From an uncultured Candidatus Saccharibacteria bacterium (GTDB lineage: Bacteria > Patescibacteriota > Saccharimonadia > Saccharimonadales > CAZJQT01), in assembly GCA_964636215.1 (NCBI GenBank), contig CAZWRJ010000003.1:6743-70742 (forward strand): a stretch of DNA of 64,000 nt. Direction: 5' to 3'. The notes below the pieces were generated by a model. It was not told where the DNA came from. It was given only the letters and a program-made list of their open reading frames with translations, and ran no database searches. A program made the position numbers and the translations under genes. Of the stretch, positions 8,667 through 60,443 are shown in pieces; positions within the stretch are counted from its first letter, which is position 1, and each line of letters starts with the position of its first letter.

Positions 8667-9825
8667 TATTTACCTCAAAAGTGGTGTGCCGTGAAATCTG
8701 AAACACCAACCCCAGTGCTGCTAAAACGAAAATAATACTAGTCCCTCCGTAACTTATAAACGGTAAGGTTATGCCCTTTAGTGGTAGTAAACCGAGCATA
8801 GCTCCGGTATTTATGATGGTTTGAGTGCTAAGCCAGGCCAAAACGCCTGCTACGATTAGCCTTGAAGCTCTGTCTGGGGCGCGCTCCATAATGCTTTTTA
8901 ATCTGATAAAGAAAGCAGTGAATAACCCAAGGAGTAAGCTTACGCCGAAGAATCCAAATTTTTCGGCAACTATGGCGAATATTGAATCGTTGGCAGCCTC
9001 TGGTAGATAGCCATAAGCCTCCACGCTATGTCCAAGGCCCTTACCAAACAAACCACCTGAGCCAACTGAAATCAAAGCCTGACAAGCCTGATAACCGCTA
9101 TTTAGGCAATCCTTTTCGGGATGCACAAAATTGAGCACACGTTCACGGCGATACCCAGGACCAGCAATAAGTAGTAGTACACCAGCTGCAGCAATAACTG
9201 CTCCTACTTGAAGGACCCTTTTCATTGGCAAGCCGGCAATAAAACTCATAGCCCCGATCATTACAGCTAGTACTGCTGCCGAACCAAAATCTTTCTGAGC
9301 AACTGCCACTACTATTCCCAAAACCCCTAGTAATATTAAGATTGGTTTTAGCGTACGATGAGAATCATTGATTATCCCCTGCTGAACCTTTTCGGCTAAG
9401 AAAAAAGCCAAACAAATAACCAGGGCGAATTTTACCAACTCGACAGACTGTAACGATAAGCCGCCGAAGCGAATCCAGCGGTGGGCCGGATAATCGACGG
9501 TTGTAGGTAAAATTAAAGCCACGGCGGTGGCTATCCCGGCCATCATGATCAAGGGACGCTGCAGACGTTTCCAGGTTGATAATGGGATACTAGCTACAAT
9601 AGTGAAAGCCACCAGTCCGATGGCAATAGCTATCAGTTGTTTTATAACAAAATAGTTGCTGTTAACTTGTTTCTGAATGGCCAGCCCGGGACTTATGGAA
9701 AAGATAACAATCAGCCCAATTACTAACAGCATGACCCCTATTAATACCAGTGTGTAATCTGGGCGGTGACGTCTTTGGCCGCTTCTATCGATATACTGTG
9801 GCTGGCGTCGTTTGGTATAGCTCAT
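8578..9825 (-). CDS. ftsW: peptidoglycan glycosyltransferase FtsW (SEDS family)
   Basis: It is a multi-TM SEDS protein. The ATG at 9825 forms an ATGA overlap with the mraY stop, and the extra 31 aa in the track ORF are not FtsW-like. Confidence 0.85.
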   Translation of the reverse strand: MSYTKRRQPQYIDRSGQRRHRPDYTLVLIGVMLLVIGLIVIFSISPGLAIQKQVNSNYFVIKQLIAIAIGLVAFTIVASIPLSTWKRLQRPLIMMAGIATAVALILPTTVDYPAHRWIRFGGLSLQSVELVKFALVICLAFFLAEKVQQGIINDSHRTLKPILILLGVLGIVVAVAQKDFGSAAVLAVMIGAMSFIAGLPMKRVLQVGAVIAAAGVLLLIAGPGYRRERVLNFVHPEKDCLNSGYQACQALISVGSGGLFGKGLGHSVEAYGYLPEAANDSIFAIVAEKFGFFGVSLLLGLFTAFFIRLKSIMERAPDRASRLIVAGVLAWLSTQTIINTGAMLGLLPLKGITLPFISYGGTSIIFVLAALGLVFQISRHTTFEVNNEPEGESSESAVDWRRDRRPHYAYPSRRP

Positions 9826-10865
9826 AGTTTTCTTTCTACGATGTACAGAACTAGCCCGAGCACACCGCAAACTTGACCGATAATCCAAAAGCGCATAGTG
9901 ACCTTTGTCTCCGGCCAACCAATGGCTTCAAAGTGATGATGAATTGGTGAGATGCGAAATATTTTTTTGCCGTGCCGGAGTTTTTTGGAAAGTATTTGTA
10001 GGACCACTGATCCAGCTTCAGCAACAAAAACAAAGCCAATAATCGGTAAAAGTACCATGGTATCGGTCAGCATTGCTACCACGCCTAGGGCTGTACCTAA
10101 CGCAAACGACCCAACATCTCCCATGAAAAAGCGGGCGGGAAAAATGTTAAACCAGGTATAACTTAGAAGCGCCCCAACAATACTCATACAAAAGGCCGCT
10201 ACACCGTAACGATGAGCGATGAAAGCGATAATAGTATAGATTCCAAAAGCTATAGCGGTTAGCCCTCCAGCTAGACCATCAAGGCCATCACTCATATTCA
10301 CGGCATTGGCTGAAGCCACCACAACTAGTACAAACAAAGGCACGATTAGCCAACCAATAGCCACTTGTCCAAGCCCAGGAATCAATATGTTATTAACATC
10401 TAGCTTAAAATAAAAGAATAGTCCGCCTATTAAAGCAATGGTCGTAATCAATGCTAGCTTGAGCTTGGAAGATAGACCAGCTACCCCCTTGCCTGAGCCA
10501 CGGATATTAATAACATCATCAAGTAGACCAACCCCACCGGCCCCGACAAACGCCGCCAGTGGCAACCAAGTCTCTGCGCGGCTGAGATTAAACACTAGCG
10601 TGGTTATACCGGCTGAGATAACAAAGATAATTCCGGCCATAGTTGGTATCAGACGACGATGCTTTTCGGCATGCAATTGATTAAAAACCTTGGCGGTCTC
10701 GCCTGTAACAGCAGTTTCGCGAGGCTTCTTCCACCACTCATAACGGTATGCCAGTGCCGTATATAGCGGAGTTATAAACATGCTCAGCGCGAAGCTGAGA
10801 CAACCGAGTAATAAAATCCGCGCCACGGTGCTGGTTTGGACTATGATTGTGAGGCTATTTTGCAT
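9822..10865 (-). CDS. mraY: phospho-N-acetylmuramoyl-pentapeptide transferase
   Basis: Motifs NAVNMSDGLDGLA, FMGDVGS and PIHHHFE are present. The start is ambiguous (10910 or 10865); I prefer 10865, which avoids overlapping ftsI. Confidence 0.9.
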   Translation of the reverse strand: MQNSLTIIVQTSTVARILLLGCLSFALSMFITPLYTALAYRYEWWKKPRETAVTGETAKVFNQLHAEKHRRLIPTMAGIIFVISAGITTLVFNLSRAETWLPLAAFVGAGGVGLLDDVINIRGSGKGVAGLSSKLKLALITTIALIGGLFFYFKLDVNNILIPGLGQVAIGWLIVPLFVLVVVASANAVNMSDGLDGLAGGLTAIAFGIYTIIAFIAHRYGVAAFCMSIVGALLSYTWFNIFPARFFMGDVGSFALGTALGVVAMLTDTMVLLPIIGFVFVAEAGSVVLQILSKKLRHGKKIFRISPIHHHFEAIGWPETKVTMRFWIIGQVCGVLGLVLYIVERKL

Positions 10866-10887
10866 GAAATCTTTCTTTATTATACCG

Positions 10888-12663
10888 CTAGGTACGTGGA
10901 TTAACGCCAAAATTATTGATTAGCATATTTACCAAATGGCCGAAAATTGGTGCTGCTGCCTGAGACCCAGCATAGCCGGCGATATGTGGTTGATTGACTC
11001 TAACAACAATTATGTACTGTGGCTGATTACCACCTACAAAGCCGATGAACATACCATTGAAACGGTCTTCGTAATAACCACCAGCTGGATTGGCAATTTG
11101 CGCCGTGCCGGTCTTACCGCCAACAATAAAGGCTGGATTTGGTTTATCCATATGATAGATGTAGTAGTTTTTAGCAATTACATTTTGCATCAAACCAACC
11201 ATTTCGTGGCTAATATTACTCTTCACCACATCCCTGCGCACCACAGTTGGGGCTATCGATTCTTTATTTCCATCAGTATCAATATAGGCGTCAACCAATC
11301 TGGGCTGATAATAGGTGCCGCCGTTAACAACCGCTGCTAGAGCTGCACCAACTTGGAGCGGTGTCGCGGTCATTCCCTGTCCGAAAGCAGTATTGGCATA
11401 TTGAATGTTCAATCCGTAACCATGGGTTGGATCAGGAATTGTACCAGCAGCTTCATAACCTTGCTCAACACCGGTGGTTTTGCCTAGCTGATAGTGATCA
11501 ACCATATAACCATGCCACGCTTCGCGGGCCTGTTGGTTTATTTCCCCGCCGCCCATTTGCATCAGAAGCCAAGTCGCTCCGGTGTTTAGCGACAGTTGCA
11601 GGATGTCAGCTATGCTGCGGGTACCTGCCCCACCGTCTTCTTCAATGTTAGTTATAGTATAGTCATCGACTTTAAAATGACTGGGGTCGTAATAAGTAGT
11701 GTTAGCGTTGACCACTCCTTGGTCTAGGGCAGCTGCAGCCGTAAACGGCTTCATTACCGAACCGATTTCCAGCGGTGAACTGACCGTTGGATTGGTAAAC
11801 AAGTTGGCGTCGCTGACTTTAGCAAAATTAGCAGGACTATAGGTTGGATAATTGGCCATGGCCTTTATTGCTCCGGTATTGGCGTCTAGAATAAGTGCCC
11901 CACCCGATGATGAATCAGCTTGTTTGAGTCCAGCTCGCAAGATATCTTCCAGCTGCGATTGCATACCTAGATCTAGTGTTAGTAGTACGTCCTTACCTGG
12001 GATTGGATCAATATCGATATTATCTTCGTTGGCAGCTAGAGGCACCCCGCTGGCGTCAGTAATGGCTTTTAGTTGTCCTGGTGTGCCGCGCAAACTTTGG
12101 TCGAGAGCCTGTTCTACGCCGTATGTCCCTTGGCCGTCATCGTTAACAAACCCCAAGACCTGAGCCGCTAGATTGCCCTGGGGGTATGTTCGGTAGTTAC
12201 TTGGAGTGGTACCGACACCCTTAAGCTTAAGATCAGTTATGGCGTTACTCTTGTCTTTGGTAACTTGAGTTGCCAGGCGTTCGTAACGACTGTTTTGGGT
12301 CTCCATTTTGCCTTGATAATCGCTGGCATTACCACCTATAACCTTTTGAACCGCCAGGGCTTCAGTACTTGGGTCGGTTATAAGTCCTGGATCGGCAAAG
12401 ACAGTGTAGCGAACTTCATTGAGGACTAAAGGTGTTGTGCTGCCGTAGTTATGCGCTAAAATGGCTCCACGTTTAGCTGGTATAGAAGGAATATTTTTAA
12501 GCTGAAAAGCTAGTGCAGCTTGTTCGTAATAAGTGTGTTTAATGACCTGTAAGTAGAAGGCTCTGATTACTAATGTCGCAGCCGCCACCAGTAAAAAAGT
12601 GTGCCACAACCGGATGCGTTGCACACTTGACGTTAGCTTTTGGGTAGTCTGGGTCGGTCGCAT
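10888..12663 (-). CDS. ftsI: penicillin-binding protein (FtsI/PBP2-type transpeptidase)
   Basis: The SVMKP (SxxK), SLN and KTGTA motifs are present, with an N-terminal TM segment. Confidence 0.9.
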   Translation of the reverse strand: MRPTQTTQKLTSSVQRIRLWHTFLLVAAATLVIRAFYLQVIKHTYYEQAALAFQLKNIPSIPAKRGAILAHNYGSTTPLVLNEVRYTVFADPGLITDPSTEALAVQKVIGGNASDYQGKMETQNSRYERLATQVTKDKSNAITDLKLKGVGTTPSNYRTYPQGNLAAQVLGFVNDDGQGTYGVEQALDQSLRGTPGQLKAITDASGVPLAANEDNIDIDPIPGKDVLLTLDLGMQSQLEDILRAGLKQADSSSGGALILDANTGAIKAMANYPTYSPANFAKVSDANLFTNPTVSSPLEIGSVMKPFTAAAALDQGVVNANTTYYDPSHFKVDDYTITNIEEDGGAGTRSIADILQLSLNTGATWLLMQMGGGEINQQAREAWHGYMVDHYQLGKTTGVEQGYEAAGTIPDPTHGYGLNIQYANTAFGQGMTATPLQVGAALAAVVNGGTYYQPRLVDAYIDTDGNKESIAPTVVRRDVVKSNISHEMVGLMQNVIAKNYYIYHMDKPNPAFIVGGKTGTAQIANPAGGYYEDRFNGMFIGFVGGNQPQYIIVVRVNQPHIAGYAGSQAAAPIFGHLVNMLINNFGVNPRT

Positions 12664-12685
12664 ATTGCCTTCTTAACGCACGTTG

Positions 12686-13033
12686 TTAGTTTTGGATAGT
12701 GGTCGATGGCGACAACGATACTAATTTGTTAGCAACATTGCTGTTTTTGACTCTATCCAGTGACTGCAAACGAGCCGCACTGACCTCTAGTTCGGAGTGT
12801 TGATCGGTAAGTTCAGTTTGATGTTGTTTGAGATCACTAATTTGATAGCTAAGCGCATTGGTTTTAGTTACCTGAGTTAGATAGAGCAAGCCTAGTAAAC
12901 AAGCCAGAACAATTAAGATAATGGTGTTACTGACTGGTCCAAGCGTTCGTTCCTTAGCGTTAAACCGAGTGGTATTTTGCTGTTTGGCCGCAAATCGCTG
13001 TCGACCTATAGCAATAGAGCTAGAATATGTCAT
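12686..13033 (-). CDS. ftsL: FtsL/septum-formation-initiator-like protein
   Basis: It has a single TM segment plus a coiled coil and sits between rsmH and ftsI. Confidence 0.6.
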   Translation of the reverse strand: MTYSSSIAIGRQRFAAKQQNTTRFNAKERTLGPVSNTIILIVLACLLGLLYLTQVTKTNALSYQISDLKQHQTELTDQHSELEVSAARLQSLDRVKNSNVANKLVSLSPSTTIQN

Positions 13034-13195
13034 TTATTTTTTGTTTTGTTTATTTTGGTGTTTATTTTGGTGTCCAGCCCCTAAAAGAGGCTGGACAATT
13101 AAGGTCAAAGGACTTTGACGCGGACCTTATACGCGCGGGAGAGATTTTTTACCTGGATAGGCACTTCTTTCCCCTTTCTTGGCTGTAACGCATTT

Positions 13196-14197
13196 CTACG
13201 CTACCAACCTTTTTGTTTTTATTTTAACTGCGGCACGTAGCTTTGCACTACGAGCACGTGGATTAAAAGCAAGTTCAGCCTTGTCAGCTGTGACTGGTTT
13301 AGGAGTCAGCAGCTTGAGGATGGCGTCGTAGCGATTACCAGAGTATTCCTTCAGGAAGTTCTTCACTATTCGATCTTCCAGACTGTGAAAACTGATAATC
13401 ACTATTCGCCCTCCTGGAGCCAGCAATTCTAGCCAAATTGGCAACGAAGCACTTAACTGGTGCAATTCGTCATTCACCGCCAACCTGATGGCTTGGAAGC
13501 TACGGGTTGCCGGGTGAATTTTGTGCGCTGGCCCAGGCCAAGCGCGGGCAATGACGTTTGCAAGTCGAAGTGTCGACTGAATCGGCCGGTTTTCCACTAT
13601 CAACTGCGCAACCCTGTGGGCTTTCGGCTCTTCACCTAAGTCCCTTAGCAGCTTGGCTAGTTCAGCTTGACTATAGTTATTGACTATATCGTAAGCTGTT
13701 AGCTTTTGCCTAGGGTCCATGCGCATATCTAGTGGGCCGTCTAATTTCAGACTAAAGCCGCGACTCGCATTGTCAAAGTGCGGTGACGATACACCTAAAT
13801 CAACCAGGATTAAATCAAACCGTTCAGCTCTGTCGCGCAATTGTCGACTGGCACTCAGATAATCCTGGTGGATTATATTTATGCCTGGTTTATCAAAGCG
13901 TTTTTTAAGCTGTTCTATGGCTTGACGATCGCGATCAACAAGAGTTACTCGTTGGTGAGCTAAGGTGCGTCCGATAACCGCGGCTGAATGCCCTCCATAT
14001 CCGGCCGTCAGATCGAGGAAGGAATCCCCTTCTTTCGGATCAAGATATTCAAGCACCCGGTCAACTAGTACCGGAAGATGTTCGGTGGTCAACTTTTGCT
14101 TGTCTACTTTTTTATCAGTAGCTTTTATGCCAGATACCTGGCTAGGCGAGAGTTTACTACCGGAAGTTTGGTGGTGATTTGTTTTGGTGTTTTTCAT
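13196..14197 (-). CDS. rsmH: 16S rRNA (cytosine1402-N4)-methyltransferase
   Basis: It matches the MraW family (LDLTAGYGGHS...). Confidence 0.9.
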   Translation of the reverse strand: MKNTKTNHHQTSGSKLSPSQVSGIKATDKKVDKQKLTTEHLPVLVDRVLEYLDPKEGDSFLDLTAGYGGHSAAVIGRTLAHQRVTLVDRDRQAIEQLKKRFDKPGINIIHQDYLSASRQLRDRAERFDLILVDLGVSSPHFDNASRGFSLKLDGPLDMRMDPRQKLTAYDIVNNYSQAELAKLLRDLGEEPKAHRVAQLIVENRPIQSTLRLANVIARAWPGPAHKIHPATRSFQAIRLAVNDELHQLSASLPIWLELLAPGGRIVIISFHSLEDRIVKNFLKEYSGNRYDAILKLLTPKPVTADKAELAFNPRARSAKLRAAVKIKTKRLVA

Positions 14198-16552: not shown

Positions 16553-17125
16553 CTACTTCAGAATTTCTTCAACAAGTTCTGGGAACTCTTCTGTCTTCAT
16601 GTCTTCAATACAAAAATGTCCGTAATTATGAAATTCTTTGTATTTAATTCCAGGGACTTTATCAATAATAATTTTTGTAGTTTTTTGAACACTTTCCTGG
16701 TCATTATCCGAGTTAAATATAGTTATGCCTGCTGTTCGACTTACTAGTTTAGGATCAATTTCAAAATCATCAAAAAAGTTTTTTGTGTATTTGTTGCCTG
16801 GATCAAGCCACGGTGCGACCAGCACAACCTTTTCAACTTTTAGCTCCGGATGAATACTCAGGTACTTTACAAAAAAGCCCGCTCCAGTACTGTGGCCTAC
16901 TAAAATTGTTTCCGGTCCAAGCTCAAAACGTTCCACTTCTCTGGTCCAGGTTTTCCAATTGCGGTCATATGCATGTGGCACTTCCGGTGTATACGCATCG
17001 ATTTCGTTTATTAGCAACTGTTTTTGTAACCAAGGAAACCAATGTGAATTAGATGCACTAGGATATTTCGGATCATAGTATTCTTCCTTGCCAGGACCAC
17101 CATGTAATAAAATCGCTGTTTTCAT
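16553..17125 (-). CDS. alpha/beta hydrolase (RBBP9/YdeN-like serine hydrolase)
   Basis: A VGHSTGAG nucleophile elbow in a ~190-aa protein. Confidence 0.65.
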   Translation of the reverse strand: MKTAILLHGGPGKEEYYDPKYPSASNSHWFPWLQKQLLINEIDAYTPEVPHAYDRNWKTWTREVERFELGPETILVGHSTGAGFFVKYLSIHPELKVEKVVLVAPWLDPGNKYTKNFFDDFEIDPKLVSRTAGITIFNSDNDQESVQKTTKIIIDKVPGIKYKEFHNYGHFCIEDMKTEEFPELVEEILK

Positions 17126-21383: not shown

Positions 21384-22064
21384 TTAAAGTAATTGTAGCT
21401 GATGGCTTGGCAGTAGCAGGTTGCCTACCCCACTCATAGATCGATGACGATAACTACGGAGCGGTGACTGAAGATGTTGGCTCAGAAGATCAGCAATAAC
21501 CAGACCAGCTCCCCCGCTGACACCAAGAGCTGGAGCGGATTGTGCGGCACGTCCATGAAGTTGTTTAGCAAGATTGATGACTCGCTGCGATAGATTAACT
21601 TGGCGGCTAAAAACCCCTACAACAATACCCTTGGCTGATTGATGCGTGCCAAGGATTAATTGCCTAGGAGAATCTTCTTCTTCAATATCAGCCGTAATTA
21701 AACTACTGCCTAGTAGTACTAAGATGGTTTTAAGCAGACGACGATTGGCCATGATTGGTACACTACGACCAACTTGATCAATCTCGATGCTGCAGTTTGA
21801 CTGTTTAGCAAAGCGGCTTAAACTTTCAGCAGCTTCGTACAAAACGCTGGAGGCAGCCAGCGGTTCTAATGTCAAAACAGTTTGGGAATCTCTTGCTTGA
21901 AGATAGGCATCGACAAGCGTTAAAGCTTGTTCACTAATGACGGCTATACGTGGCAAAGTATTGGCCGAATTTAGTTCTGACATACGAGTAATCTGAAGTA
22001 AAGGTACTTTAAGCTGCTCAGCCAAAGCTGTAAATAACGGATCAATTGATTGGTCCTGAACCAA
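21384..22064 (-). CDS. hypothetical protein
   Basis: 226 aa, a TTG start preceded by GAGGG, contiguous with the receiver-like gene. Confidence 0.45.
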   Translation of the reverse strand: MVQDQSIDPLFTALAEQLKVPLLQITRMSELNSANTLPRIAVISEQALTLVDAYLQARDSQTVLTLEPLAASSVLYEAAESLSRFAKQSNCSIEIDQVGRSVPIMANRRLLKTILVLLGSSLITADIEEEDSPRQLILGTHQSAKGIVVGVFSRQVNLSQRVINLAKQLHGRAAQSAPALGVSGGAGLVIADLLSQHLQSPLRSYRHRSMSGVGNLLLPSHQLQLL

Positions 22065-22116
22065 GTTCCTGCCCTCGTCTAGTTTGCTTTTAGTATAGCA
22101 CTAGCCCAGGCATCAT

Positions 22117-22818
22117 CTAGGGTACAAATTTGAGTTTCGGTAGAATTATTTTATTGAAATCGTTTAGAAATTCAGACGATTCTGTAGACAGCCGCAATGT
22201 CTTATCACGAAGTGGTAGAAGTATCATGCTGTCTTTTTGCCCAGTCGTAATTTCACCGTCAATTCGAGAGCCAACGACGCCTTTTACCATAGGTGCACTG
22301 TATGCCGTAATCCGTACTTTGCCAGCTTTGGCCTGAGATTTATAGGTTTCGAGAGCCTGGCTGTAACTTTGATTTAGTACCTCCAGCCGTAGCGCAAACG
22401 CTGTAGTGCCAGCGATATCTGGTACGAAACCAGGATAAAAATAACCGTCAACCGGACTCGAAGCGGTATCTTTATTTACTATGTAAGCATCCCAAGTTTT
22501 AGGGTATGTGACCGTTACCCCGCCGTAAGTATCTGGACCTTTGTAAGTTTTATATGGTGATTTCTCTTGCTCGGCAAATATTTTGACTTGTTTGTCATCT
22601 TCTTGCTTGACAGCTTGAGCAACGGCTGTGGCAGCTTTTTGGTCACTATTATTTTTGTAATCTTGGCGACCACCGAAGGCCCAGACCGCAAAAGTTATGC
22701 TAGCAATCAGCGCAATAACAAGTAACAATATTATAAGAATTGTAGCTAGAGATCGACCATGTTTTTGATGATGGCCGATATTAGGAGGAGTTCCGTAACT
22801 AGTTTGGTTGGGCGGCAT
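22117..22818 (-). CDS. membrane-anchored hypothetical protein
   Basis: N-terminal TM then a ~180-aa extracytoplasmic domain. Confidence 0.55.
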   Translation of the reverse strand: MPPNQTSYGTPPNIGHHQKHGRSLATILIILLLVIALIASITFAVWAFGGRQDYKNNSDQKAATAVAQAVKQEDDKQVKIFAEQEKSPYKTYKGPDTYGGVTVTYPKTWDAYIVNKDTASSPVDGYFYPGFVPDIAGTTAFALRLEVLNQSYSQALETYKSQAKAGKVRITAYSAPMVKGVVGSRIDGEITTGQKDSMILLPLRDKTLRLSTESSEFLNDFNKIILPKLKFVP

Positions 22819-22841: not shown

Positions 22842-23336
22842 TTATTTTTTAAGAGGTTGGTAACGGTAATAAAATAAGCCGTTCTTTCCGACGGTGACTT
22901 TTTTACCCGGTATTTCAAAAGCAAAGCTAATAACTTTGACAGGTTTAGTAATTTCTTGAATAATTTTTTTATCCAATTTTGGCATATATCGTTTAAGTAA
23001 AAAAATGTAAATGGCATCTGTTTCTGGCCATGACTGGTGCCAATAGTTTCCAAACTGAACAGTAATTAATTTGCGGTGTCGCCAACTTGCTAGACGACTC
23101 CAAATAACTAGTATCGGGTTAAGCTCATAGCCTATACAAACAATTCCTCGATCAGCTGCCCTTCTAAGTACGCGTCCATCGCCGCTGCCCAGTTCGAGCA
23201 ATGTTTGGCCCGGTTTTAAATCAAGTAAATCCAGGGCAGTTTCGGTTTGTTTTTTTAACGTTGGCAGATATGGTGCCCCGAAAATTAACACAAATCCAAA
23301 TAACAGAACGATAATACTCAGGGCTATCAATATCAT
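22842..23336 (-). CDS. membrane-anchored class I SAM-dependent methyltransferase
   Basis: An N-terminal TM segment is followed by LLELGSGDGRV (motif I). Confidence 0.65.
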   Translation of the reverse strand: MILIALSIIVLLFGFVLIFGAPYLPTLKKQTETALDLLDLKPGQTLLELGSGDGRVLRRAADRGIVCIGYELNPILVIWSRLASWRHRKLITVQFGNYWHQSWPETDAIYIFLLKRYMPKLDKKIIQEITKPVKVISFAFEIPGKKVTVGKNGLFYYRYQPLKK

Positions 23337-24778
23337 TTGGGTAATTGTTCTTTATCGGTTGGCTCAATAACCTCAGGCGGCTGGTCAGAAACGGGAGTTG
23401 GTATTTCTGATGTTTTAGATGTCTGTGCTTGTTTAGGTGGTTGGTTGATTTTCTTGGGCGGAAGATTTTTAAGCCATGGTAGTTTGTGACGATGCCTATA
23501 GAGCAAGTAGCCCCCGAGCCCCGCAGCACCAAGAATGAGTAGTAGGCCGATGCCTATTAGCCAGCCGTAGGTGCCCTTTAACCTATTAAAGAGACTGGTA
23601 GGATTAGTTAGAGTGCCGAGTACAGCTTCTGGCACATCGCCAAGATCTTTTACTTCAGTTGTCTTCGAACCATCAGCCTGTTTTTGTTTATCATTACTAC
23701 TGGAAGCCTTGTCTGAATTATTGGAACTTGAACCGGATCCGGATCCACCACCTGCACCTGAGCCACCTCCAATGGCCACGCCAGTGTCGGCTAATATGGC
23801 AGCCCTTATGGCGTCTAGCCCGGATTGAACCCCGTTCATTTGGTGTGGCGCGCCAGCTACAACCGTTTTAGTAAGATATGGAGTGCCACTGGCTACTAAT
23901 TTATTATAGTAATCACCGACGTGAGCTTGCATGGTTTGGTCTTCGCCCCCAAGCAATAAGACAATTCGAGTATCAGCAAAATAATAATCCAGAGAACCGG
24001 TGTCTATGCCGTCACTATTCCAATGTGAAGTCCAAGAAGAGTCGTGATTTTCACAAGGACCGCCACCAGAAAGATATCCATAGTTACCGTCTAAGTATGG
24101 ATAGTCATTAGGGTTATAAGTGTAGGCATCGTGAGTATTTAGACAACCTTTGGCATAGGCCGAGTAAGGAGGACCTGAACTCGGTAGAGCTGCGTCGATA
24201 ATCGAGTCCAGTCCGTAAAACGCTAGAGCGTACATTGTCTGAGCGGCTCCTCCACTGTTACCGCTGACACAAAAACCACACTTTCCTATCTTGTCGACCG
24301 TGATATTAAGTGGTTTATATTTATTATCGTAAATCCATTTGATGACCGTTGATGGTCGGCAAGCAAGTTTGGAAATTCCAGCTCTTTCGCCATTGGCGGC
24401 CCGAACCCAAGGATTAACCCAGGCGACTTCAATAACCTTAAAGCCATCGCTGCGTAATTCACTTAGAAAATTAGCTTTTACTTGCTTGCCACCCAGATAC
24501 CAACTGGTACCGCCAGTACCAGTGAAAAGTACGACTAGACCTCTAGTTTTGGAAGTTGGGTTGTATTCAGCAATGGTTGCGTCATCGGCCTCGTCCAGAC
24601 TAGAACAACTAACACGTAGGTTGGTACAGTCGGCACTCGGTGGACAGGTGTTACCCCCACTTGTTACAGAGGCACTACCAAGTGATAATGATGATGACGC
24701 CTTGGCAGTAAGTGGTAACATGACCAGGAATAGTAGTAGAACTATGTTGATAAACAGAATTGAGCGAATTTTTGTCAT
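23333..24778 (-). CDS. surface-anchored alpha/beta-hydrolase-like protein (signal peptide, GNSGG elbow, Gly/Ser linker, C-terminal TM + tail), paralog A
   Basis: It contains KIGKCGFCVSGNSGG and AKLACRPSTVIKWI. It is a paralog of 58953-60443 and has a C-terminal TM with an EVIEPTDKEQ tail. Confidence 0.7.
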   Translation of the reverse strand: MTKIRSILFINIVLLLFLVMLPLTAKASSSLSLGSASVTSGGNTCPPSADCTNLRVSCSSLDEADDATIAEYNPTSKTRGLVVLFTGTGGTSWYLGGKQVKANFLSELRSDGFKVIEVAWVNPWVRAANGERAGISKLACRPSTVIKWIYDNKYKPLNITVDKIGKCGFCVSGNSGGAAQTMYALAFYGLDSIIDAALPSSGPPYSAYAKGCLNTHDAYTYNPNDYPYLDGNYGYLSGGGPCENHDSSWTSHWNSDGIDTGSLDYYFADTRIVLLLGGEDQTMQAHVGDYYNKLVASGTPYLTKTVVAGAPHQMNGVQSGLDAIRAAILADTGVAIGGGSGAGGGSGSGSSSNNSDKASSSNDKQKQADGSKTTEVKDLGDVPEAVLGTLTNPTSLFNRLKGTYGWLIGIGLLLILGAAGLGGYLLYRHRHKLPWLKNLPPKKINQPPKQAQTSKTSEIPTPVSDQPPEVIEPTDKEQLPK

Positions 24779-33536: not shown

Positions 33537-34688
33537 CTAAAAATGAATGAAGTACAGATTACCAGCGCTACGGGTGTTTACGGAATAGGTACCATCTAAG
33601 AATTGGTTATATTGACTAACCAGCACTGTTCCATCACTATTAACTGCTTCTACATACATGGCGTGACCATAATAACCGGCAGTGCTAATAGCGACATCAC
33701 CAACCCTAGCGTGACCGCCATAGTCCATGGGGATACCTGACCGTCTAGCGTTACCTGGCCACTGGTTGGCATTGCCGACCCCGCCCCAGTAAGGCATAAA
33801 TCGTCCACTTAGAGCTACCTTAAAAGCTGCAAAACTGACACATTCTCGGTTGAACATTCCCCAACTGTCAATAATAGAATCTTGAGGAGCGTAAGCCCAA
33901 CCGTGTGGGTAACCACCGCCGCCAGGTACACCCTTGGTCATTCCACCAAGAATGCCCTTCATGTTCTCGATAAGTTGTTGGGTGCGCAATTTTGTGATTT
34001 CGGCGTTGTTCTTTGTAAATTGCTGGTTAAGAGCAGCTCTTTGGCTTTCGTTCAAGTTAAGCAAATGATTAACTTCGGCCTGTTGATCGTCAAGCTGGTT
34101 CTGCATATTTTTTTGGTCGGTGATCAGATCTTTTAGAGTATCATTTTCGGCTTTCAACTTAGCTTTTAAGGTAGTGATCTTGTCTAAGGTATCTTTGATT
34201 TTTTGCTCAACCGCGCTGCGGTATTCTTGTTTATCTAAGAAGTCGCTTAGGTTCTTGCTAGAAGCTAACATTTCTAAGGTACTTATCTGGCCTTCGACAT
34301 ACATAGCCCGTATATTTTCACCGAGCAAAGCTTTTTGCTTATCCAGTTCTTTTTGGGCAATGGCGATTTGTTTTTCCAATTTTTGGCTTTTTTGGCTATT
34401 GGCATCAATCTGTCGTTGCAAATTATCGATCTGTTGTTGTAACTTGTTAATCTTGTCCTGTAAGCTACTAGCTTCTACGCTCAAACTATCTTGCTTGTGT
34501 TGGATGGTTGAATTTTCACCTTGAAGTTGATTTATTTGGGCATCAAACCGGTCAGCCATAGCTAGTGGTGAAATAACAAATCCAACGCTCATTACACCGG
34601 TCAGCGCTAATAAGGCCATAGAGTTACCAAGGCGAATAAGACGTTTAGTTTGAACTGATTTTTGTTTTTTCATGAACAGTTTGATCAT
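33537..34688 (-). CDS. PcsB-like secreted coiled-coil / CHAP-domain peptidoglycan hydrolase
   Basis: A signal peptide and a long coiled coil lead to a C-terminal CHAP domain (C...GDVAI...GHAMYVE). The ATG at 34688 is preceded by AAGGGG; the track start is a TTG. Confidence 0.75.
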   Translation of the reverse strand: MIKLFMKKQKSVQTKRLIRLGNSMALLALTGVMSVGFVISPLAMADRFDAQINQLQGENSTIQHKQDSLSVEASSLQDKINKLQQQIDNLQRQIDANSQKSQKLEKQIAIAQKELDKQKALLGENIRAMYVEGQISTLEMLASSKNLSDFLDKQEYRSAVEQKIKDTLDKITTLKAKLKAENDTLKDLITDQKNMQNQLDDQQAEVNHLLNLNESQRAALNQQFTKNNAEITKLRTQQLIENMKGILGGMTKGVPGGGGYPHGWAYAPQDSIIDSWGMFNRECVSFAAFKVALSGRFMPYWGGVGNANQWPGNARRSGIPMDYGGHARVGDVAISTAGYYGHAMYVEAVNSDGTVLVSQYNQFLDGTYSVNTRSAGNLYFIHF

Positions 34689-34796
34689 ACCATACCCCTT
34701 ACCCTTTTTCAACTTTTATGATGTAGTCTGAAGAGCTACAAAACAAACCCTCGTTTTAGGTTATCTGTTTAATCGATTATTTGAAGCTTGTTTGAT

Positions 34797-35741
34797 TTAC
34801 TTAGAAGTTTTGAATTTGAGATAGCGCCGTGTGGCTACGACTGACGATACGGCACCAATTAGTATACCAATGGTAAGCTGCGATAGCAAAATCAACCAAA
34901 AGTTATCTTTCAGATAATCACTAGCAAATCCGATGTCGAGTAGGCCTAGGCTGGTGGCATTAAAAGCCGAAGCTGCCACCGCAAACAGCGTGTTACATAG
35001 AACGATAGATAAGACCGCTGAAATAATGCCATAAATTATGGCTTCAACAACGAAAGGCCCACGAATAAACCAACTGCTGGCGCCTAGTAATCTCATAATG
35101 GTTAGCTCATCACGGCGATTGAAAACGGCCATCCGAATAGTATTAAAGATAATTAGCATGGATACGGTGGCAAATATAAAAACACCAACTAGTCCTGCTT
35201 CACGTAAGAATTTGGTAGCCTTACTAATTTTATCGACTGCCGTTTTTCGATCACCGCTATAATTTGTTTCATCGGACTGAAGTGCCACAATATCTGGTTT
35301 GTCTAAATAAGCCTTGAGTTCATCAAGTTTATTGGGGTCTTTGGGTTTAATTCTAATGGTCGCCGGCAATGGGTTGTCGGTTTGGGAAATAGCCACAAGC
35401 AAATCAAGATTATTCTGATTTTGTTCTTTATATATCTCCAGAGCATCGTCTTTTGATAGATAAGTAACTTCCTTGGTATTAGGTAGTTGCTTTAGTTCAT
35501 TAAGTAAATTATCGCGCTGGGCTTCAGTTACACTATCTTTCAAATAAACCGACACATCGATTCGATCAGTAATTTGTTGAACAGTGTTCCCGAATGTGGC
35601 GTTAGCAATAACCGAGAATAAAATAATTGATAGGGTTATTAACATTACAGCCATAGCAGCAATAGCAAGAGTGGCGTTCCGCAAAAAATTTTGGGTACCA
35701 GTACGAATAATTCGGCCTAGGGTAATTAGCTGGTGCCTCAT
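34797..35741 (-). CDS. ftsX: cell division permease FtsX
   Basis: Four TM helices with a large periplasmic loop, immediately adjacent to ftsE. Confidence 0.85.
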   Translation of the reverse strand: MRHQLITLGRIIRTGTQNFLRNATLAIAAMAVMLITLSIILFSVIANATFGNTVQQITDRIDVSVYLKDSVTEAQRDNLLNELKQLPNTKEVTYLSKDDALEIYKEQNQNNLDLLVAISQTDNPLPATIRIKPKDPNKLDELKAYLDKPDIVALQSDETNYSGDRKTAVDKISKATKFLREAGLVGVFIFATVSMLIIFNTIRMAVFNRRDELTIMRLLGASSWFIRGPFVVEAIIYGIISAVLSIVLCNTLFAVAASAFNATSLGLLDIGFASDYLKDNFWLILLSQLTIGILIGAVSSVVATRRYLKFKTSK

Positions 35742-36433
35742 TTGACTATGCCTTTGTGGTCATAATCGGCATTGGCTCGGTCGTTGACCACTCTTCCATC
35801 TCTTAGGGTAATCACTCGTCTTTTCAGACGATTTACTATTTCTTGGTTGTGAGTGGTGAGTAATACGGTGGTGCCAAAGCGATTAATTTTTTCCAAAACC
35901 TTTATAACATCCCAAGCGTGTTTGGGATCTAGATTACCGGTAGGCTCATCGGCAATTAATATCTTTGGTTGACGAACAATTGCTCTGGCAATCGCCACCC
36001 TTTGACGCTCACCACCGGACAATTCAAGGGGCATGCGTTTTTCCTTGCCCTTAAGACCAACAATGTCCAGAACCTTGGGAACCGTATGTTTAATCTCACC
36101 ATTGCCATAACCAACAATCTCTAATGCGAAAGCAACATTTTCAAAGACATTTTTATTAGGTAACAGTTTAAAGTCCTGGAAAACTACGCCGATTTTGCGT
36201 CTCAGAAGTGGTATGTCTTTGTCTTTTAATTTGTCATAATCAATGCCACCAACTACAATCTTACCGCTAGTTTGACGTTCCTCGCGAGTTAATAATTTGA
36301 GCAGGGTGCTCTTGCCTGCTCCGCTAGTACCAATAATAATAACGAACTCTTTCGGCTCAACATGCAGACTAACGCGGTCAAGAGCTGTAGCGCTACGATT
36401 ATAAACTTTTGTTACCCGGTCCAGTAAAATCAC
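35738..36433 (-). CDS. ftsE: cell division ATP-binding protein FtsE
   Basis: ABC ATPase with Walker A GTSGAGKST. Confidence 0.9.
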   Translation of the reverse strand: MILLDRVTKVYNRSATALDRVSLHVEPKEFVIIIGTSGAGKSTLLKLLTREERQTSGKIVVGGIDYDKLKDKDIPLLRRKIGVVFQDFKLLPNKNVFENVAFALEIVGYGNGEIKHTVPKVLDIVGLKGKEKRMPLELSGGERQRVAIARAIVRQPKILIADEPTGNLDPKHAWDVIKVLEKINRFGTTVLLTTHNQEIVNRLKRRVITLRDGRVVNDRANADYDHKGIVK

Positions 36434-58150: not shown

Positions 58151-58960
58151 ATGACCATACAGAACTTCTTGCGTACCAGTACAACCGAATTAACTAAGCA
58201 TGATGTGTTTACGGCAAGACTTGATTGTTTGGTGCTACTTGAGGACTTATTGAACACAGATCGTACTCAACTACTTGCGAATGGTGACAAAAAACTTAGT
58301 GTTGAACAACTTTCTATATTAAATCAACAAATTGAACGTCGGGGCGCCCACGAACCATTAGCCTACATTCGTGGTAAAACGGAGTTTTATGGTCGAGAGT
58401 TTGTGATTTCACCAGATACACTTGAACCCAGACCGGAAACCGAGACCATGATTGAGCTGGTTAAAAGTCTGGGTTTTACTAAAGGCACTAAACTTGCCGA
58501 TATCGGTGCTGGTAGTGGTGCGATTGGTATTACACTGGCCCTGGAAATACCTGGGCTTCTAGTTGATATGTATGAACTGAGTAAACCAGCCATTGAAATA
58601 GCCAAAAAAAATATAATGACTAACGGGGTTCAGAATTGTCATATATATAAGAGTGACCTACTTGCTGACCTAAAAACTAACTACCAAGTTATAGTTGCTA
58701 ACCTCCCTTATGTACCTGATAGTCATACAATTAACCCAGCTGCTATGCATGAACCAAAACTAGCGATTTTTGGCGGTCCTGATGGCTTAGATATCTACAG
58801 ACGTCTTTTTAGTCAAATAGCGGGTTTAGATCATAAGCCACATTATGTTTTAACTGAGGCTCTGCCCCCGCAGCACAAGGAGCTAGAACTAATTGCCAAA
58901 CAAAGTGGCTATAAGCAGTTAAAAACAGATGATTTCATTCAAGTATACGAGCTTACTTAG
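58151..58960 (+). CDS. prmC: release factor glutamine methyltransferase
   Basis: IGAGSGAIGI and NLPYV (a variant of NPPY), located directly after prfA. Confidence 0.8.
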   Translation: MTIQNFLRTSTTELTKHDVFTARLDCLVLLEDLLNTDRTQLLANGDKKLSVEQLSILNQQIERRGAHEPLAYIRGKTEFYGREFVISPDTLEPRPETETMIELVKSLGFTKGTKLADIGAGSGAIGITLALEIPGLLVDMYELSKPAIEIAKKNIMTNGVQNCHIYKSDLLADLKTNYQVIVANLPYVPDSHTINPAAMHEPKLAIFGGPDGLDIYRRLFSQIAGLDHKPHYVLTEALPPQHKELELIAKQSGYKQLKTDDFIQVYELT

Positions 58961-60443
58961 AAGTTTGATCTTTATCGGTTGGTTCAATGATTTCTGGCGA
59001 TTCAGTTGGTGGTTCATTGGGGGTAGTTGGTTTAGTAGAAACTAGTGACGGGAAATGTCTATGCATAAATTCCTGTTTCTTCAGATAGCGCCAGCCAAAA
59101 TAGCCTCCTATTGCAAGACCCCCGAGTAAAATTATGAATCCAATAAGAATAGCCCAGCCCCATGGACCCTTAATGAGCTTTAAACTGTTTGTCGGATTAG
59201 TTATAAGACTCAGTACTCCGCTTGGTACGTCACCAGCGTTTTGAACACTACTATCAGGATTAGATTTATTATTGTCAGAGGTTTGCGAATCGTGATTTTT
59301 TGCCGATGAGCTACCTGAACCACCAGAGGAGGATGATCCAGATCCACCTCCAGATGAGCCGCCCTGGCCAGAATTTACACCTGTATCATCGAGAATAGCT
59401 GCTTCTATAGCCACAACTCCGGCATCAATATTTGTAATACCGTGTGATGCACCAGATACGGTTTCTTGGCTAAAATACGGCGTAACTCCTTTTAGTTTGG
59501 CTAAATAATCTTGAGCGTGAGCTGGTGCAACGGTAACATCAGCTGAACCAAAGATAAAATGCAATCTGGTAGTTGGATAGTTAAAATCAGTTCCTGCTTC
59601 AACACTGTCGGCTTTCCAATCTGGCGCGTAACTATCGTCATGACTCGCACAAGGCCCTGATGACGGATCACGTGGATTATAGCCATCATAAGAACTATCG
59701 ATATCACGGGCATTAGATACATCATAGTAGTAGTCTTCCTGCCCAGGCAGTCGTTGGCAACCTTTAGCTAAAGCGGCATGAGGTGGACCACTGGTTGGAA
59801 TAGCGGCGTCAATTATGCTATCTAACCCATAAAAACTGAGTGAAAATGATATTTGGCTGGAACCACCACTGTTACCAGATACACAAAAGCCACATTTACC
59901 AATTTTATCGGGGTGGATATTGAGATCTGCGTAAATGTTGTCATGGATCCACTTAATGGCAGTAGCTGGTCTACAAGCTAGTTTGGCTGGCCCCGGCTGT
60001 TCATTGCGCCCACTTTTGACCCAACCGTTGGGCCACGCTACTTGAATCATCGTTAATCCCTTGGCCCTCATATCAGATACAACCTGAAGTCTACCGCTGA
60101 CGCCACCGTCATGTGTCCACCAGTTACTACCATCTGCGCCACTAAACAACACGACTACACCGCGAACGGCGGTGGTGGCCTTACTTATACTCATATAACC
60201 GGGGGCGTCAGCGTTTGTACTTGGGCAGCTCACGTTAAACTGCGAACAAGTGGCACCGGAGTCACAATCTGGTGCTCCACTACCTGTTTGCGTGAACGTA
60301 CCCAGGGATAGGCTACTGGCTTTAGCTTGGCTATGCTTGTTCAAACCAAGTGCTAGTAAGTAAAAACTAACTATGACAAAACAGCTTGCCAGTAGAGCTT
60401 TCAGAGTATTTCCTAAAATTTTTGATGGTTTTAATTTAGTCAT
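58953..60443 (-). CDS. surface-anchored alpha/beta-hydrolase-like protein, paralog B
   Basis: It has the same architecture and motifs as 23333-24778 (KIGKCGFCVSGNSGG, AKLACRPATAIKWI, Gly/Ser linker, C-terminal TM, EIIEPTDKDQ tail). Confidence 0.7.
   Translation of the reverse strand: MTKLKPSKILGNTLKALLASCFVIVSFYLLALGLNKHSQAKASSLSLGTFTQTGSGAPDCDSGATCSQFNVSCPSTNADAPGYMSISKATTAVRGVVVLFSGADGSNWWTHDGGVSGRLQVVSDMRAKGLTMIQVAWPNGWVKSGRNEQPGPAKLACRPATAIKWIHDNIYADLNIHPDKIGKCGFCVSGNSGGSSQISFSLSFYGLDSIIDAAIPTSGPPHAALAKGCQRLPGQEDYYYDVSNARDIDSSYDGYNPRDPSSGPCASHDDSYAPDWKADSVEAGTDFNYPTTRLHFIFGSADVTVAPAHAQDYLAKLKGVTPYFSQETVSGASHGITNIDAGVVAIEAAILDDTGVNSGQGGSSGGGSGSSSSGGSGSSSAKNHDSQTSDNNKSNPDSSVQNAGDVPSGVLSLITNPTNSLKLIKGPWGWAILIGFIILLGGLAIGGYFGWRYLKKQEFMHRHFPSLVSTKPTTPNEPPTESPEIIEPTDKDQTSK

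What the first reader, a model, noticed from the sequence alone, without database searches (positions are those of the whole stretch)
23333..24778. Two paralogous surface-anchored hydrolase-like proteins with a conserved cytoplasmic tail
Genes at 23333-24778 and 58953-60443, both on the minus strand, share the same architecture. Each has a signal peptide, then a ~330-aa domain with KIGKCGFCVSGNSGG (a GxSxG-type elbow) and AKLACRP(S/A)T(V/A)IKWI blocks. A Gly/Ser-rich linker, a single TM helix and a short cytoplasmic tail follow. The tail ends in a near-identical motif (PPEVIEPTDKEQ versus SPEIIEPTDKDQ). Conserving a tail motif across diverged paralogs suggests a shared interaction or sorting function. 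Such duplicated exposed enzymes are candidates for host or surface interaction.
Basis: seen in the sequence. Interest (0 to 1): 0.6.

Follow-up and report, generated by a model that had tools for sequence, protein, structure and literature searches.

The report
Two membrane-tethered serine esterase paralogs
Two diverged copies of an uncharacterised secreted serine-esterase domain are tied to the outside of the cell membrane and share a short conserved motif at the end of their cytoplasmic tails; the enzyme type is ordinary, but the family is unnamed and the tail motif is unexplained.

Summary
Both ORFs exist as given: A at 23333-24778 (-), 481 aa, and B at 58953-60443 (-), 496 aa. They are 41% identical over their full length.

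Both share one layout: signal peptide, ~310-aa domain, Gly/Ser linker, one TM helix and a Pro-rich tail. The tails end in PEVIEPTDKEQ and PEIIEPTDKDQ (9/11 identical; 0 of 3000 shuffles reach this).

The domain is an alpha/beta-hydrolase (AF2 pLDDT 97). Ser175, Asp280 and His312 lie at the canonical nucleophile-elbow, post-beta7 and post-beta8 positions.

No Pfam or NCBIfam model matches A or B, and none reaches its cut-off on the hydrolase domain of any relative. The best PDB fold matches are generic esterases (TM ~0.5, 11-16% identity). The domain nevertheless defines a large unnamed family of ~1300 cluster representatives, all secreted or surface proteins.

The substrate is unknown. Distant members often lie in or beside surface-glycan gene clusters, and B follows LCP and HtrA genes. 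I therefore favour an envelope or extracellular glycan esterase over a lipase, with low confidence.

The anchor-plus-tail module occurs in only three known proteins. Its partner is unknown. The host-interaction idea is untested.

The parts
23333..24778 (-). Gene A: 481-aa type I membrane protein (signal peptide, alpha/beta-hydrolase ectodomain, linker, TM, tail)
   Evidence: ORF list; full-length AF2 model; coordinates verified
24698..24778 (-). A signal peptide (residues 1-27, ...LTAKA|SSS)
   Evidence: Hydropathy peak 1-31; helix 2-19 in the model; the AxA cleavage site is inferred from the sequence
23777..24697 (-). A alpha/beta-hydrolase domain (residues 28-334)
   Evidence: AF2 pLDDT 97.1, pTM 0.94; Foldseek PDB hits are all alpha/beta-hydrolase esterases, lipases or S9 peptidases, best E 6e-9; family profile hit E 3e-134
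24254..24256 (-). A Ser175, putative nucleophile in G-N-S-G-G
   Evidence: Conserved 151/151; lies between strand 169-174 and helix 176-186
23939..23941 (-). A Asp280, putative catalytic acid (GGED)
   Evidence: Conserved 141/145; follows strand 271-277
23843..23845 (-). A His312, putative catalytic base
   Evidence: Conserved 144/145; in the loop after strand 302-307
23645..23776 (-). A Gly/Ser/Asn-rich linker (residues 335-378)
   Evidence: pLDDT <50 for 348-372; low-complexity sequence
23567..23644 (-). A conserved juxtamembrane block (residues 379-404, GDVPxxVLxx[IL]TNP[TS]...KG..)
   Evidence: Conserved in A, B, P0002, P0006 and more weakly P0005; two helices 379-391 and 393-400, pLDDT 71-88
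23495..23566 (-). A transmembrane helix (residues 405-428)
   Evidence: Hydropathy 402-427; helix 405-432, pLDDT ~90
23336..23494 (-). A cytoplasmic tail (residues 429-481): basic start, Pro-rich, disordered
23345..23377 (-). A tail motif PEVIEPTDKEQ
   Evidence: 9/11 identical to B, 0/3000 shuffles; 15-aa block shared with ortholog P0002, 5/2000 shuffles
58953..60443 (-). Gene B: 496-aa paralog with the same architecture
59376..60317 (-). B alpha/beta-hydrolase domain (residues 43-356); Ser192 (59868-59870), Asp302 (59538-59540), His334 (59442-59444)
   Evidence: Alignment A1; profile hit E 1e-138; coordinates
59091..59234 (-). B juxtamembrane block plus TM helix (residues 404-451)
58965..58997 (-). 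B tail motif PEIIEPTDKDQ
22842..23336 (-). 164-aa gene (N-terminal TM plus a weak SAM-methyltransferase-like match) overlapping A's stop codon by 4 nt; probably co-transcribed
   Evidence: Pfam Methyltransf_23 E 3.7e-5, below its cut-off; the same arrangement follows P0002 in L001
60451..63640 (-). Genes upstream of B with gaps of 7 nt, 24 nt and a 20-nt overlap: HtrA-type protease (60451-61638), 249-aa polytopic membrane protein (61663-62412), LCP glycopolymer ligase (62393-63640); probable envelope operon ending in B
   Evidence: same order in L023; no terminator above the shuffle background

Best explanation
A and B are old paralogs. Each encodes a catalytically competent serine hydrolase, most likely a carboxyl-esterase, of the alpha/beta-hydrolase superfamily. 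The domain belongs to a large secreted family that no curated model covers. Each protein is exported by a cleavable signal peptide. It stays tethered to the outer face of the single cell membrane by a C-terminal TM helix. A flexible Gly/Ser linker of about 45 residues lets the disulfide-rich catalytic domain reach into the wall zone. Ser175, Asp280 and His312 (A numbering) would form the charge-relay triad, with a GGG-type oxyanion loop (FTGTGG) after strand beta3. My preferred substrate class, held with low confidence, is an ester on a cell-envelope or extracellular glycopolymer rather than a lipid. The disordered Pro-rich cytoplasmic tail ends in a short linear motif, hydrophobic-hydrophobic-[EQ]-P-[ST]-D. 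This motif most likely docks a shared cytoplasmic partner that regulates, localises or turns over both enzymes. Shown: the architecture, the fold, conservation of the triad, the extracellular nature of the family, and the non-random motif. Inferred: catalysis, substrate class, disulfides, operon membership and the motif's role.
For: Fold: AF2 model pLDDT 97.1, pTM 0.94. All top Foldseek PDB hits are alpha/beta-hydrolase esterases, lipases or S9 peptidases. Triad: Ser 151/151, Asp 141/145 and His 144/145 across the best relatives, each at its canonical topological position. Family: 1300 representatives at E<=1e-3 and 346 at E<=1e-30. Extracellular nature: N-terminal signals; 8 conserved cysteines; accessory Calx-beta, Ig-like, RTX, CWB2, PA14, fn3 and T9SS domains in relatives. 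Topology. Monoderm host cell: heliorhodopsin gene, a family reported as absent from diderms (bioRxiv 10.1101/356287, listed), plus LCP. Glycan lead: family members lie inside GT4/Glycos_transf_4/Polysacc_deac_1 clusters in two unrelated contigs. Others lie next to GT2, GT92 or a weak GH26 match. Verrucomicrobial paralogs lie next to GT2, a sugar epimerase and ASST sulfotransferases. B lies 7 nt downstream of HtrA in a tight LCP-membrane protein-HtrA-B string. Tail motif.
Against: No activity data exist and no characterised homolog was found. No model coordinates were available, so the triad geometry and the pocket were judged from topology only. The glycan association is loose: two of six database contexts are strong and no partner gene is fixed. 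It comes from relatives that are 30-45% identical. Gene A itself lies among housekeeping genes (xseA, xseB). Fold neighbours include lipases and peptidases as well as carbohydrate esterases, all at similar TM scores. The tail motif is known from only three proteins in two genomes, and B versus P0002 alone is not significant (510/2000).
Confidence: 0.6

Rival explanations
1. Surface lipase or phospholipase. The tethered enzymes would release fatty acids or lipids from neighbouring or host cells for an organism with reduced biosynthesis.
For: Fold neighbours include monoglyceride lipases and thermophilic lipases at the same scores as the esterases. The window is a compact chromosome that shows no lipid-synthesis genes among those annotated. 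The enzyme is displayed on the cell surface.
Against: The organism was not identified, so a symbiotic lifestyle is unproven. The family is widespread in free-living-type soil bacteria and Verrucomicrobiae. Its members associate with glycan genes, not lipid genes. There are no lipase-family sequence hits above noise.
Confidence: 0.15
2. Serine peptidase of the S9-like branch of alpha/beta-hydrolases, acting on wall peptides or secreted proteins.
For: Faint Peptidase_S9 matches in 10 of 96 members, best E 1.8e-4. The GxSxGG elbow is typical of S9. S9 peptidases appear among the fold hits. B lies next to HtrA.
Against: All matches are below the Pfam cut-offs and cover only the catalytic C-terminal half that all alpha/beta-hydrolases share. 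There is no beta-propeller or other S9 N-terminal domain. Esterases score at least as well.
Confidence: 0.08
3. The tail similarity between A and B reflects gene conversion or a recombination patch between the two 3' ends, not functional constraint.
For: A and B in the same genome share the motif more closely (9/11) than A does with its own ortholog P0002. Six of the nine identical residues use the same codon, against 38% over the whole gene pair.
Against: Three of the nine identical residues differ at synonymous sites. The flanking tail DNA and protein are unalignable, so any patch would be only ~24-33 nt. The motif core survives in P0002 through conservative changes at the same place: IVQPSD against VIEPTD, with the 15-aa block significant at 5/2000.
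Confidence: 0.15
4. Non-catalytic surface adhesins or pseudo-enzymes that only keep the hydrolase fold.
For: No activity data. Relatives carry many adhesin-type accessory domains.
Against: Ser, Asp and His are intact in A, B and nearly all of the 151 best relatives, together with the oxyanion-loop glycines.
Confidence: 0.04

Closest known systems
Alpha/beta-hydrolase superfamily carboxyl-esterases: CE7 acetyl-xylan esterases (6fkx, 3fcy), Lactobacillus feruloyl/cinnamoyl esterases (7z2u, 3pf9), metagenomic esterases (6z68, 7zjo)
   Same: Same core fold. Nucleophile elbow GxSxG(G). Ser-Asp-His order. Cap insertion between beta6 and beta7. Foldseek probability 1.0, E ~1e-8.
   Different: Only 11-16% identity and TM 0.45-0.57. 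No Pfam or NCBIfam family reaches its cut-off. Eight conserved cysteines and family-specific blocks (LACRPAT, CGFCxxGNSGG, PTSGPP). Secreted, and here membrane-tethered.
Prolyl-oligopeptidase (S9) / phospholipase-carboxylesterase (PRK11460, YpfH-like) branch
   Same: GxSxGG elbow. Weak profile similarity over the Asp/His half: Peptidase_S9 in 10/96 members and PRK11460 in 8/96, best E ~2e-4.
   Different: All matches are sub-threshold. No propeller domain. Extracellular and disulfide-rich.
Extracellular short-chain-length PHA depolymerase, catalytic domain type 1 (NF050058)
   Same: Secreted alpha/beta-hydrolase serine esterase acting on a polymer. Faint match for B (E 0.0087) and two other members.
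   Different: 15.6 bits against a cut-off of 150. Only 2 of 96 members match. No PHA substrate-binding domain.
C-terminal sorting or anchoring signals (LPXTG/sortase, PEP-CTERM, GlyGly-CTERM and similar)
   Same: A conserved short block, then a TM helix, then basic residues at the C-terminus of a secreted protein.
   Different: No match to any NCBIfam sorting-domain model. The module is not shared with unrelated proteins. The tail is 45-53 aa long and has its own conserved terminal motif, whereas known sorting signals have only a few basic residues there.

Membership tests
Alpha/beta-hydrolase superfamily (serine hydrolases) | Central mostly parallel beta-sheet flanked by helices (alpha/beta-hydrolase fold) | tested here: met
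   AF2 model pLDDT 97.1 with alternating strand and helix elements. 738 PDB matches at E<=1e-3; all 50 best listed are alpha/beta-hydrolases.
Alpha/beta-hydrolase superfamily (serine hydrolases) | Nucleophile in a sharp strand-turn-helix 'elbow' with a small-x-Ser-x-small motif | tested here: met
   G173-N-S175-G-G lies between strand 169-174 and helix 176-186. The Ser is invariant in 151/151.
Alpha/beta-hydrolase superfamily (serine hydrolases) | Acid after beta7 and His after beta8, in the sequence order Ser-Asp-His | tested here: met
   Asp280 follows strand 271-277 and His312 follows strand 302-307. They are conserved 141/145 and 144/145.
Alpha/beta-hydrolase superfamily (serine hydrolases) | Triad residues within hydrogen-bonding distance in three dimensions | not testable with these tools
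   Model coordinates were not exposed to the sandbox. Only the secondary-structure topology could be read.
Alpha/beta-hydrolase superfamily (serine hydrolases) | Hydrolytic activity on an ester, amide or thioester substrate | not testable with these tools
   Needs biochemistry.
Any curated hydrolase family (Pfam-A, NCBIfam) | Score at or above the family's gathering or curated cut-off | tested here: not met
   No family with E<=1 covers the domain of A or B in Pfam. The best NCBIfam match is 15.6 bits against a cut-off of 150. Across 96 members the hydrolase-domain matches are faint: Peptidase_S9 (10/96), Abhydrolase_3, Abhydrolase_1, DUF1749, PRK11460 (8/96) and PHA depolymerase (2/96).
Peptidase S9 (prolyl oligopeptidase family) | N-terminal beta-propeller or equivalent gating domain plus an S9 catalytic-domain match | tested here: not met
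   The domain begins about 10 residues after the signal peptide with three short strands that belong to the hydrolase fold. S9 matches are sub-threshold.
Known C-terminal protein-sorting signals | Signature motif, TM and a short basic tail; shared by many unrelated cargo proteins of one genome; matches a sorting-domain model | tested here: not met
   No NCBIfam CTERM or LPXTG model matched. The module HMM hits only the hydrolase subclade in the window and in L001, L006, L007, L009 and L023. Tail length is 45-53 aa. Only 64 kb of the genome could be searched.
Carbohydrate esterase (functional class) | Fusion to carbohydrate-binding modules, or fixed linkage to glycan-active genes | tested here: inconclusive
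   Two of six database contexts lie inside glycan-biosynthesis clusters and three more next to GT2, GT92 or weak GH26. PA14, BD-FAE and GH39_C fusions each occur once. There is no classical CBM and no fixed partner.

The most novel reading that the evidence does not exclude
The pair represents a previously undescribed family of extracytoplasmic esterases that edit ester groups on the cell's own wall or surface glycopolymers. In this lineage their activity or placement would be controlled from inside the cell through a dedicated C-terminal tail motif, hydrophobic-hydrophobic-[EQ]-P-[ST]-D, possibly a phospho-Thr/Ser docking site. That would be an inside-out regulatory link between the cytoplasm and wall-modifying enzymes in a small-genome monoderm bacterium.
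Probability: 0.12. Interest if true: 0.65.

Novelty: new variant of a known kind. Interest (0 to 1): 0.35.

Why it matters
The domain defines a large family of secreted alpha/beta-hydrolases: ~1300 clusters at 50% identity, mostly from soil and other environmental metagenomes. The family has no curated model, no solved structure and no characterised member. The sources call it 'hypothetical protein'. A name, a profile and one biochemical assay would annotate thousands of proteins. They might also reveal a new carbohydrate- or polymer-esterase activity. The membrane-tethered pair adds a small puzzle: a cytoplasmic tail motif kept between paralogs whose catalytic domains are only 45% identical. 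That implies a partner inside the cell for enzymes that work outside it. None of this overturns current understanding. It is a solid annotation lead rather than a surprise.

Tried and rejected
- **Curated models and PDB by sequence.** Direct Pfam, NCBIfam and PDB sequence searches with A and B gave nothing usable. A PDB profile search with 96 members gave a best E of only 0.13, aligning the oxyanion loop to the HGGG loop of brefeldin A esterase.
- **Triad geometry.** Model coordinates are not exposed, so distances could not be measured.
- **Source organism.** Cluster look-ups gave no names or accessions. Exact-protein look-ups gave only run accessions, or nothing. No paper mentions those accessions. 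The GTDB species-representative scan found only Verrucomicrobiae relatives, not the source genome.
- **More tail-bearing orthologs.** Two word-index searches, one profile word-index search that yielded only 5 proteins, the exhaustive representative search and a metagenome scan found none beyond P0002.
- **Portable sorting domain.** Rejected.
- **Fresh gene conversion of the tail.** Unlikely, because synonymous differences lie inside the motif, but an old short patch is not excluded.
- **Promoter and terminator scans.** Nothing above the shuffle background.
- **Literature.** GNSGG returns HtrA proteases, which have a different fold. Family-specific peptides return nothing. A Saccharibacteria/lipase search returned nothing.
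Full report
**Observation**

BLASTP aligns them end to end at 41% identity, E 2e-110. The quoted blocks are present. IGKCGFCVSGNSGG is identical in both proteins. KLACRPSTVIKWI in A matches KLACRPATAIKWI in B. The tails end in PPEVIEPTDKEQLPK and SPEIIEPTDKDQTSK.

A family-profile scan of the six-frame translation finds these two copies and no third.

**Architecture**

Hydropathy shows one N-terminal signal segment and one C-terminal TM segment in each protein. An AKA|SS site follows the signal, and basic residues follow the TM. A full-length AF2 model of A gives these elements:

| Residues (A) | Element | pLDDT |
|---|---|---|
| 2-19 | Signal-peptide helix | not given separately |
| 35-334 | Hydrolase domain | ~97 |
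| 340-372 | Gly/Ser/Asn linker, disordered | <50 |
| 379-400 | Two juxtamembrane helices | 71-88 |
| 405-432 | TM helix | ~90 |
| 438-481 | Tail, disordered | 35-51 |

This is a type I membrane protein with the enzyme domain outside the cell and the tail inside.

**What the domain is**

No Pfam or NCBIfam model and no PDB sequence match A or B. The word-indexed search of 5.8 billion clusters found only A, B and one 47%-identical protein, P0002.

An exhaustive HMMER profile search of 1.84 billion representatives found about 1300 relatives at E<=1e-3, and 346 at E<=1e-30. So this is a large family that has simply never been curated. The sources call its members 'hypothetical protein'.

Conservation among the 151 best relatives, in A numbering:
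- Ser175, the GxSxG serine: 151/151.
- Asp280, in GGxD: 141/145.
- His312: 144/145.
- Asp230: 150/151.
- Eight cysteines are also conserved.

With a 96-sequence alignment, AF2 gives a model at pLDDT 97.1 and pTM 0.94. Foldseek against PDB returns only alpha/beta-hydrolases among the matches listed. These include esterases, feruloyl and acetyl-xylan esterases, monoglyceride and thermophilic lipases, and S9 peptidases. The best E is 6e-9, with TM only 0.45-0.57 and identity 11-16%.

The serine lies between a strand and a helix, which is the nucleophile elbow. The Asp follows the next-to-last strand and the His follows the last strand. These are the canonical triad positions.

Triad geometry could not be measured because model coordinates are not exposed. 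The other fold libraries were unavailable.

Scanning 96 members against Pfam and NCBIfam gives only faint sub-threshold touches on the hydrolase domain. These are Peptidase_S9 in 10/96, PRK11460 esterase in 8/96 and PHA depolymerase in 2/96. GNSGG is also the catalytic motif of HtrA proteases, including the gene next to B. That is a coincidence between unrelated folds.

**The family is extracellular**

Members carry N-terminal signals. Their varied C-terminal additions include Calx-beta (10 of 32 long members), Ig-like domains, InlB B-repeats, CWB2, RTX repeats, PA14, fn3, a T9SS sorting tail, a second esterase (BD-FAE), and in a minority a C-terminal TM anchor.

**Genomic setting**

The window is an ordinary compact bacterial chromosome. 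It carries:
- TopA and a dcw cluster (MraW, PBP, MraY, FtsW, MurG).
- SecA, PrfA and PrfB.
- Several aminoacyl-tRNA synthetases.
- FtsE and FtsX next to a CHAP hydrolase.
- RseP, UppS, CTP synthase and RecO.

The window also holds a heliorhodopsin gene. That family is reported to be confined to monoderms (bioRxiv 10.1101/356287 and 10.1101/2021.02.01.429150, listed). Together with an LCP ligase, this argues for a single-membrane envelope. The ectodomains would then be truly surface-exposed. The organism itself could not be identified.

Gene A lies 47 nt downstream of xseA-xseB. Its stop codon overlaps a small gene with a TM segment and a weak methyltransferase-like match. Gene B lies 7 nt downstream of an HtrA protease, at the end of a tight string of LCP, a 249-aa polytopic membrane protein, HtrA and B. 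Promoter and terminator scans are uninformative.

**Orthologs and age of the duplication**

P0002 is 60% identical to A in the domain. It lies in the same xseAB...RecO...HisRS neighbourhood on a 63-kb contig.

P0005, from an NCBI MAG, lies beside prfA-prmC, near the same S2-Tsf-RRF-UppS-RseP-Rce1-ProRS-GreA-AspRS block that neighbours B in the window. It is therefore B's positional ortholog.

In a distance tree A groups with P0002. B is as far from A (45%) as from P0005 (46%) or an unrelated-looking member, P0015 (47%). The duplication is therefore deep.

**The C-terminal module**

The juxtamembrane block (DVPxxVLxx[IL]TNP[TS]...KGx[YW]GW) and the TM helix recur in A, B, P0002 and P0006, and more weakly in P0005. 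P0005 and P0006 have short tails without the motif.

An HMM of the module finds no other protein in the window or the related loci. It is therefore not a general sorting signal, as far as 64 kb plus the loci can show.

Tail comparisons after shuffling:

| Pair | Result |
|---|---|
| A vs B | 9 of 11 identities; 0 of 3000 shuffles reach it by identity, 0 of 2000 by BLOSUM score |
| A vs P0002 | Significant 15-residue block, TPVSDQPPEVIEPTD vs SPANDMPAAIVQPSD; 5 of 2000 shuffles |
| B vs P0002 | Not significant alone; 510 of 2000 shuffles |

The shared core is hydrophobic-hydrophobic-[EQ]-P-[ST]-D, 4-10 residues from the C-terminus.

Three of the nine identical motif residues use different codons in A and B. 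That argues against a fresh conversion patch. Codon identity in the motif (6/9) is nevertheless above the gene-wide 38%, so an old short patch is not excluded. No further tail-bearing protein exists in the databases searched.

**Substrate clues**

Contexts of six more distant members and three Verrucomicrobiae paralogs:
- P0101 and P0057 lie inside similar surface-glycan clusters. These hold GT4 enzymes, a WecA/MraY-type Glycos_transf_4, two CE4 deacetylases and sugar-nucleotide enzymes. One cluster also holds a sulfotransferase.
- P0171 is followed by an unannotated 188-aa gene and then a GT2. P0155 is next to a GT92. P0174 is next to a weak GH26 match.
- P0169 shows no glycan link.
- Two of three Verrucomicrobiae paralogs follow an ASST arylsulfotransferase gene. 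One has a GT2 next to it and one has a sugar epimerase nearby.

Together with the LCP-HtrA string upstream of B, this leans towards an esterase acting on envelope or extracellular glycopolymers. No partner gene is fixed and no classical CBM fusion was seen, so I hold this at roughly one chance in three. Lipase and peptidase readings remain open.

**Verdict**

The sorting and host-interaction ideas are not.

The finding is a new, uncurated family within a very well known superfamily. In this lineage it takes an unusual tethered form with a conserved cytoplasmic tail motif of unknown partner. It is a good annotation and enzymology lead of moderate interest, not a categorical novelty.

Noticed in passing
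window 45259-46122 (-): A 287-aa ORF matches Pfam Heliorhodopsin (E 2.9e-27, above its cut-off). Heliorhodopsins are reported to be restricted to monoderm organisms, so this bears on the envelope type of the unidentified source organism.
   Followed up: partly
window 60451-61638 (-): The HtrA-type protease just upstream of B carries the same pentapeptide, GNSGG (NQGNSGGPLVN), as the hydrolase elbow of A and B. It is the trypsin-fold catalytic motif, so this is a coincidence between unrelated folds that could mislead a motif-based reading.
   Followed up: yes
window 22842-23336 (-); L001 11428-11931: A 164-aa gene with an N-terminal TM and a sub-threshold SAM-methyltransferase match overlaps A's stop codon by 4 nt (ATGA). 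The same overlap follows the ortholog P0002 in L001. This may be translational coupling; its function is unknown.
   Followed up: partly
window 61663-62412 (-): A 249-aa polytopic membrane protein with no Pfam match lies between the LCP ligase and HtrA, overlapping the LCP gene by 20 nt. It is part of the same tight gene string as B.
   Followed up: no
P0004 (656 aa, from the representative search): One relative carries two complete copies of the hydrolase domain in tandem, joined by a poly-proline linker. Both copies keep the GNSGG serine, and they are 43% identical to each other.
   Followed up: partly
L003 6057-9545 and L004 7349-9424 (Verrucomicrobiae MAG CAWCST01): Two of the three paralogs of the family in one Verrucomicrobiae genome are immediately preceded by ASST-type arylsulfotransferase genes. 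A sulfotransferase also lies in the glycan cluster around P0057 (L026). This may be a link to sulfated substrates.
   Followed up: partly
window 33537-36433 (-): FtsE (35738-36433), FtsX (34797-35741) and a 391-aa CHAP-domain protein (33537-34712) lie in a row. This is the arrangement expected for FtsEX-controlled cell-wall hydrolysis.
   Followed up: no
window 7500-14197 (-): In the dcw cluster the ORFs of at least 150 aa read MraW, PBP transpeptidase, MraY, FtsW, MurG. No Mur ligase gene (murE, murF, murD, murC) lies among them.
   Followed up: no
window 16553-17125 (-); L001 19279-19836: A separate small alpha/beta-hydrolase of 190 aa (Pfam Ser_hydrolase) is unrelated to A and B. It is conserved in the syntenic contig L001.
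   Followed up: no
window 21384-22818 (-): Two consecutive genes downstream of the A operon (233 aa and 226 aa) encode proteins with no Pfam match. The 233-aa protein has an N-terminal TM segment, read from its sequence. Both have same-sized counterparts in L001.
   Followed up: no
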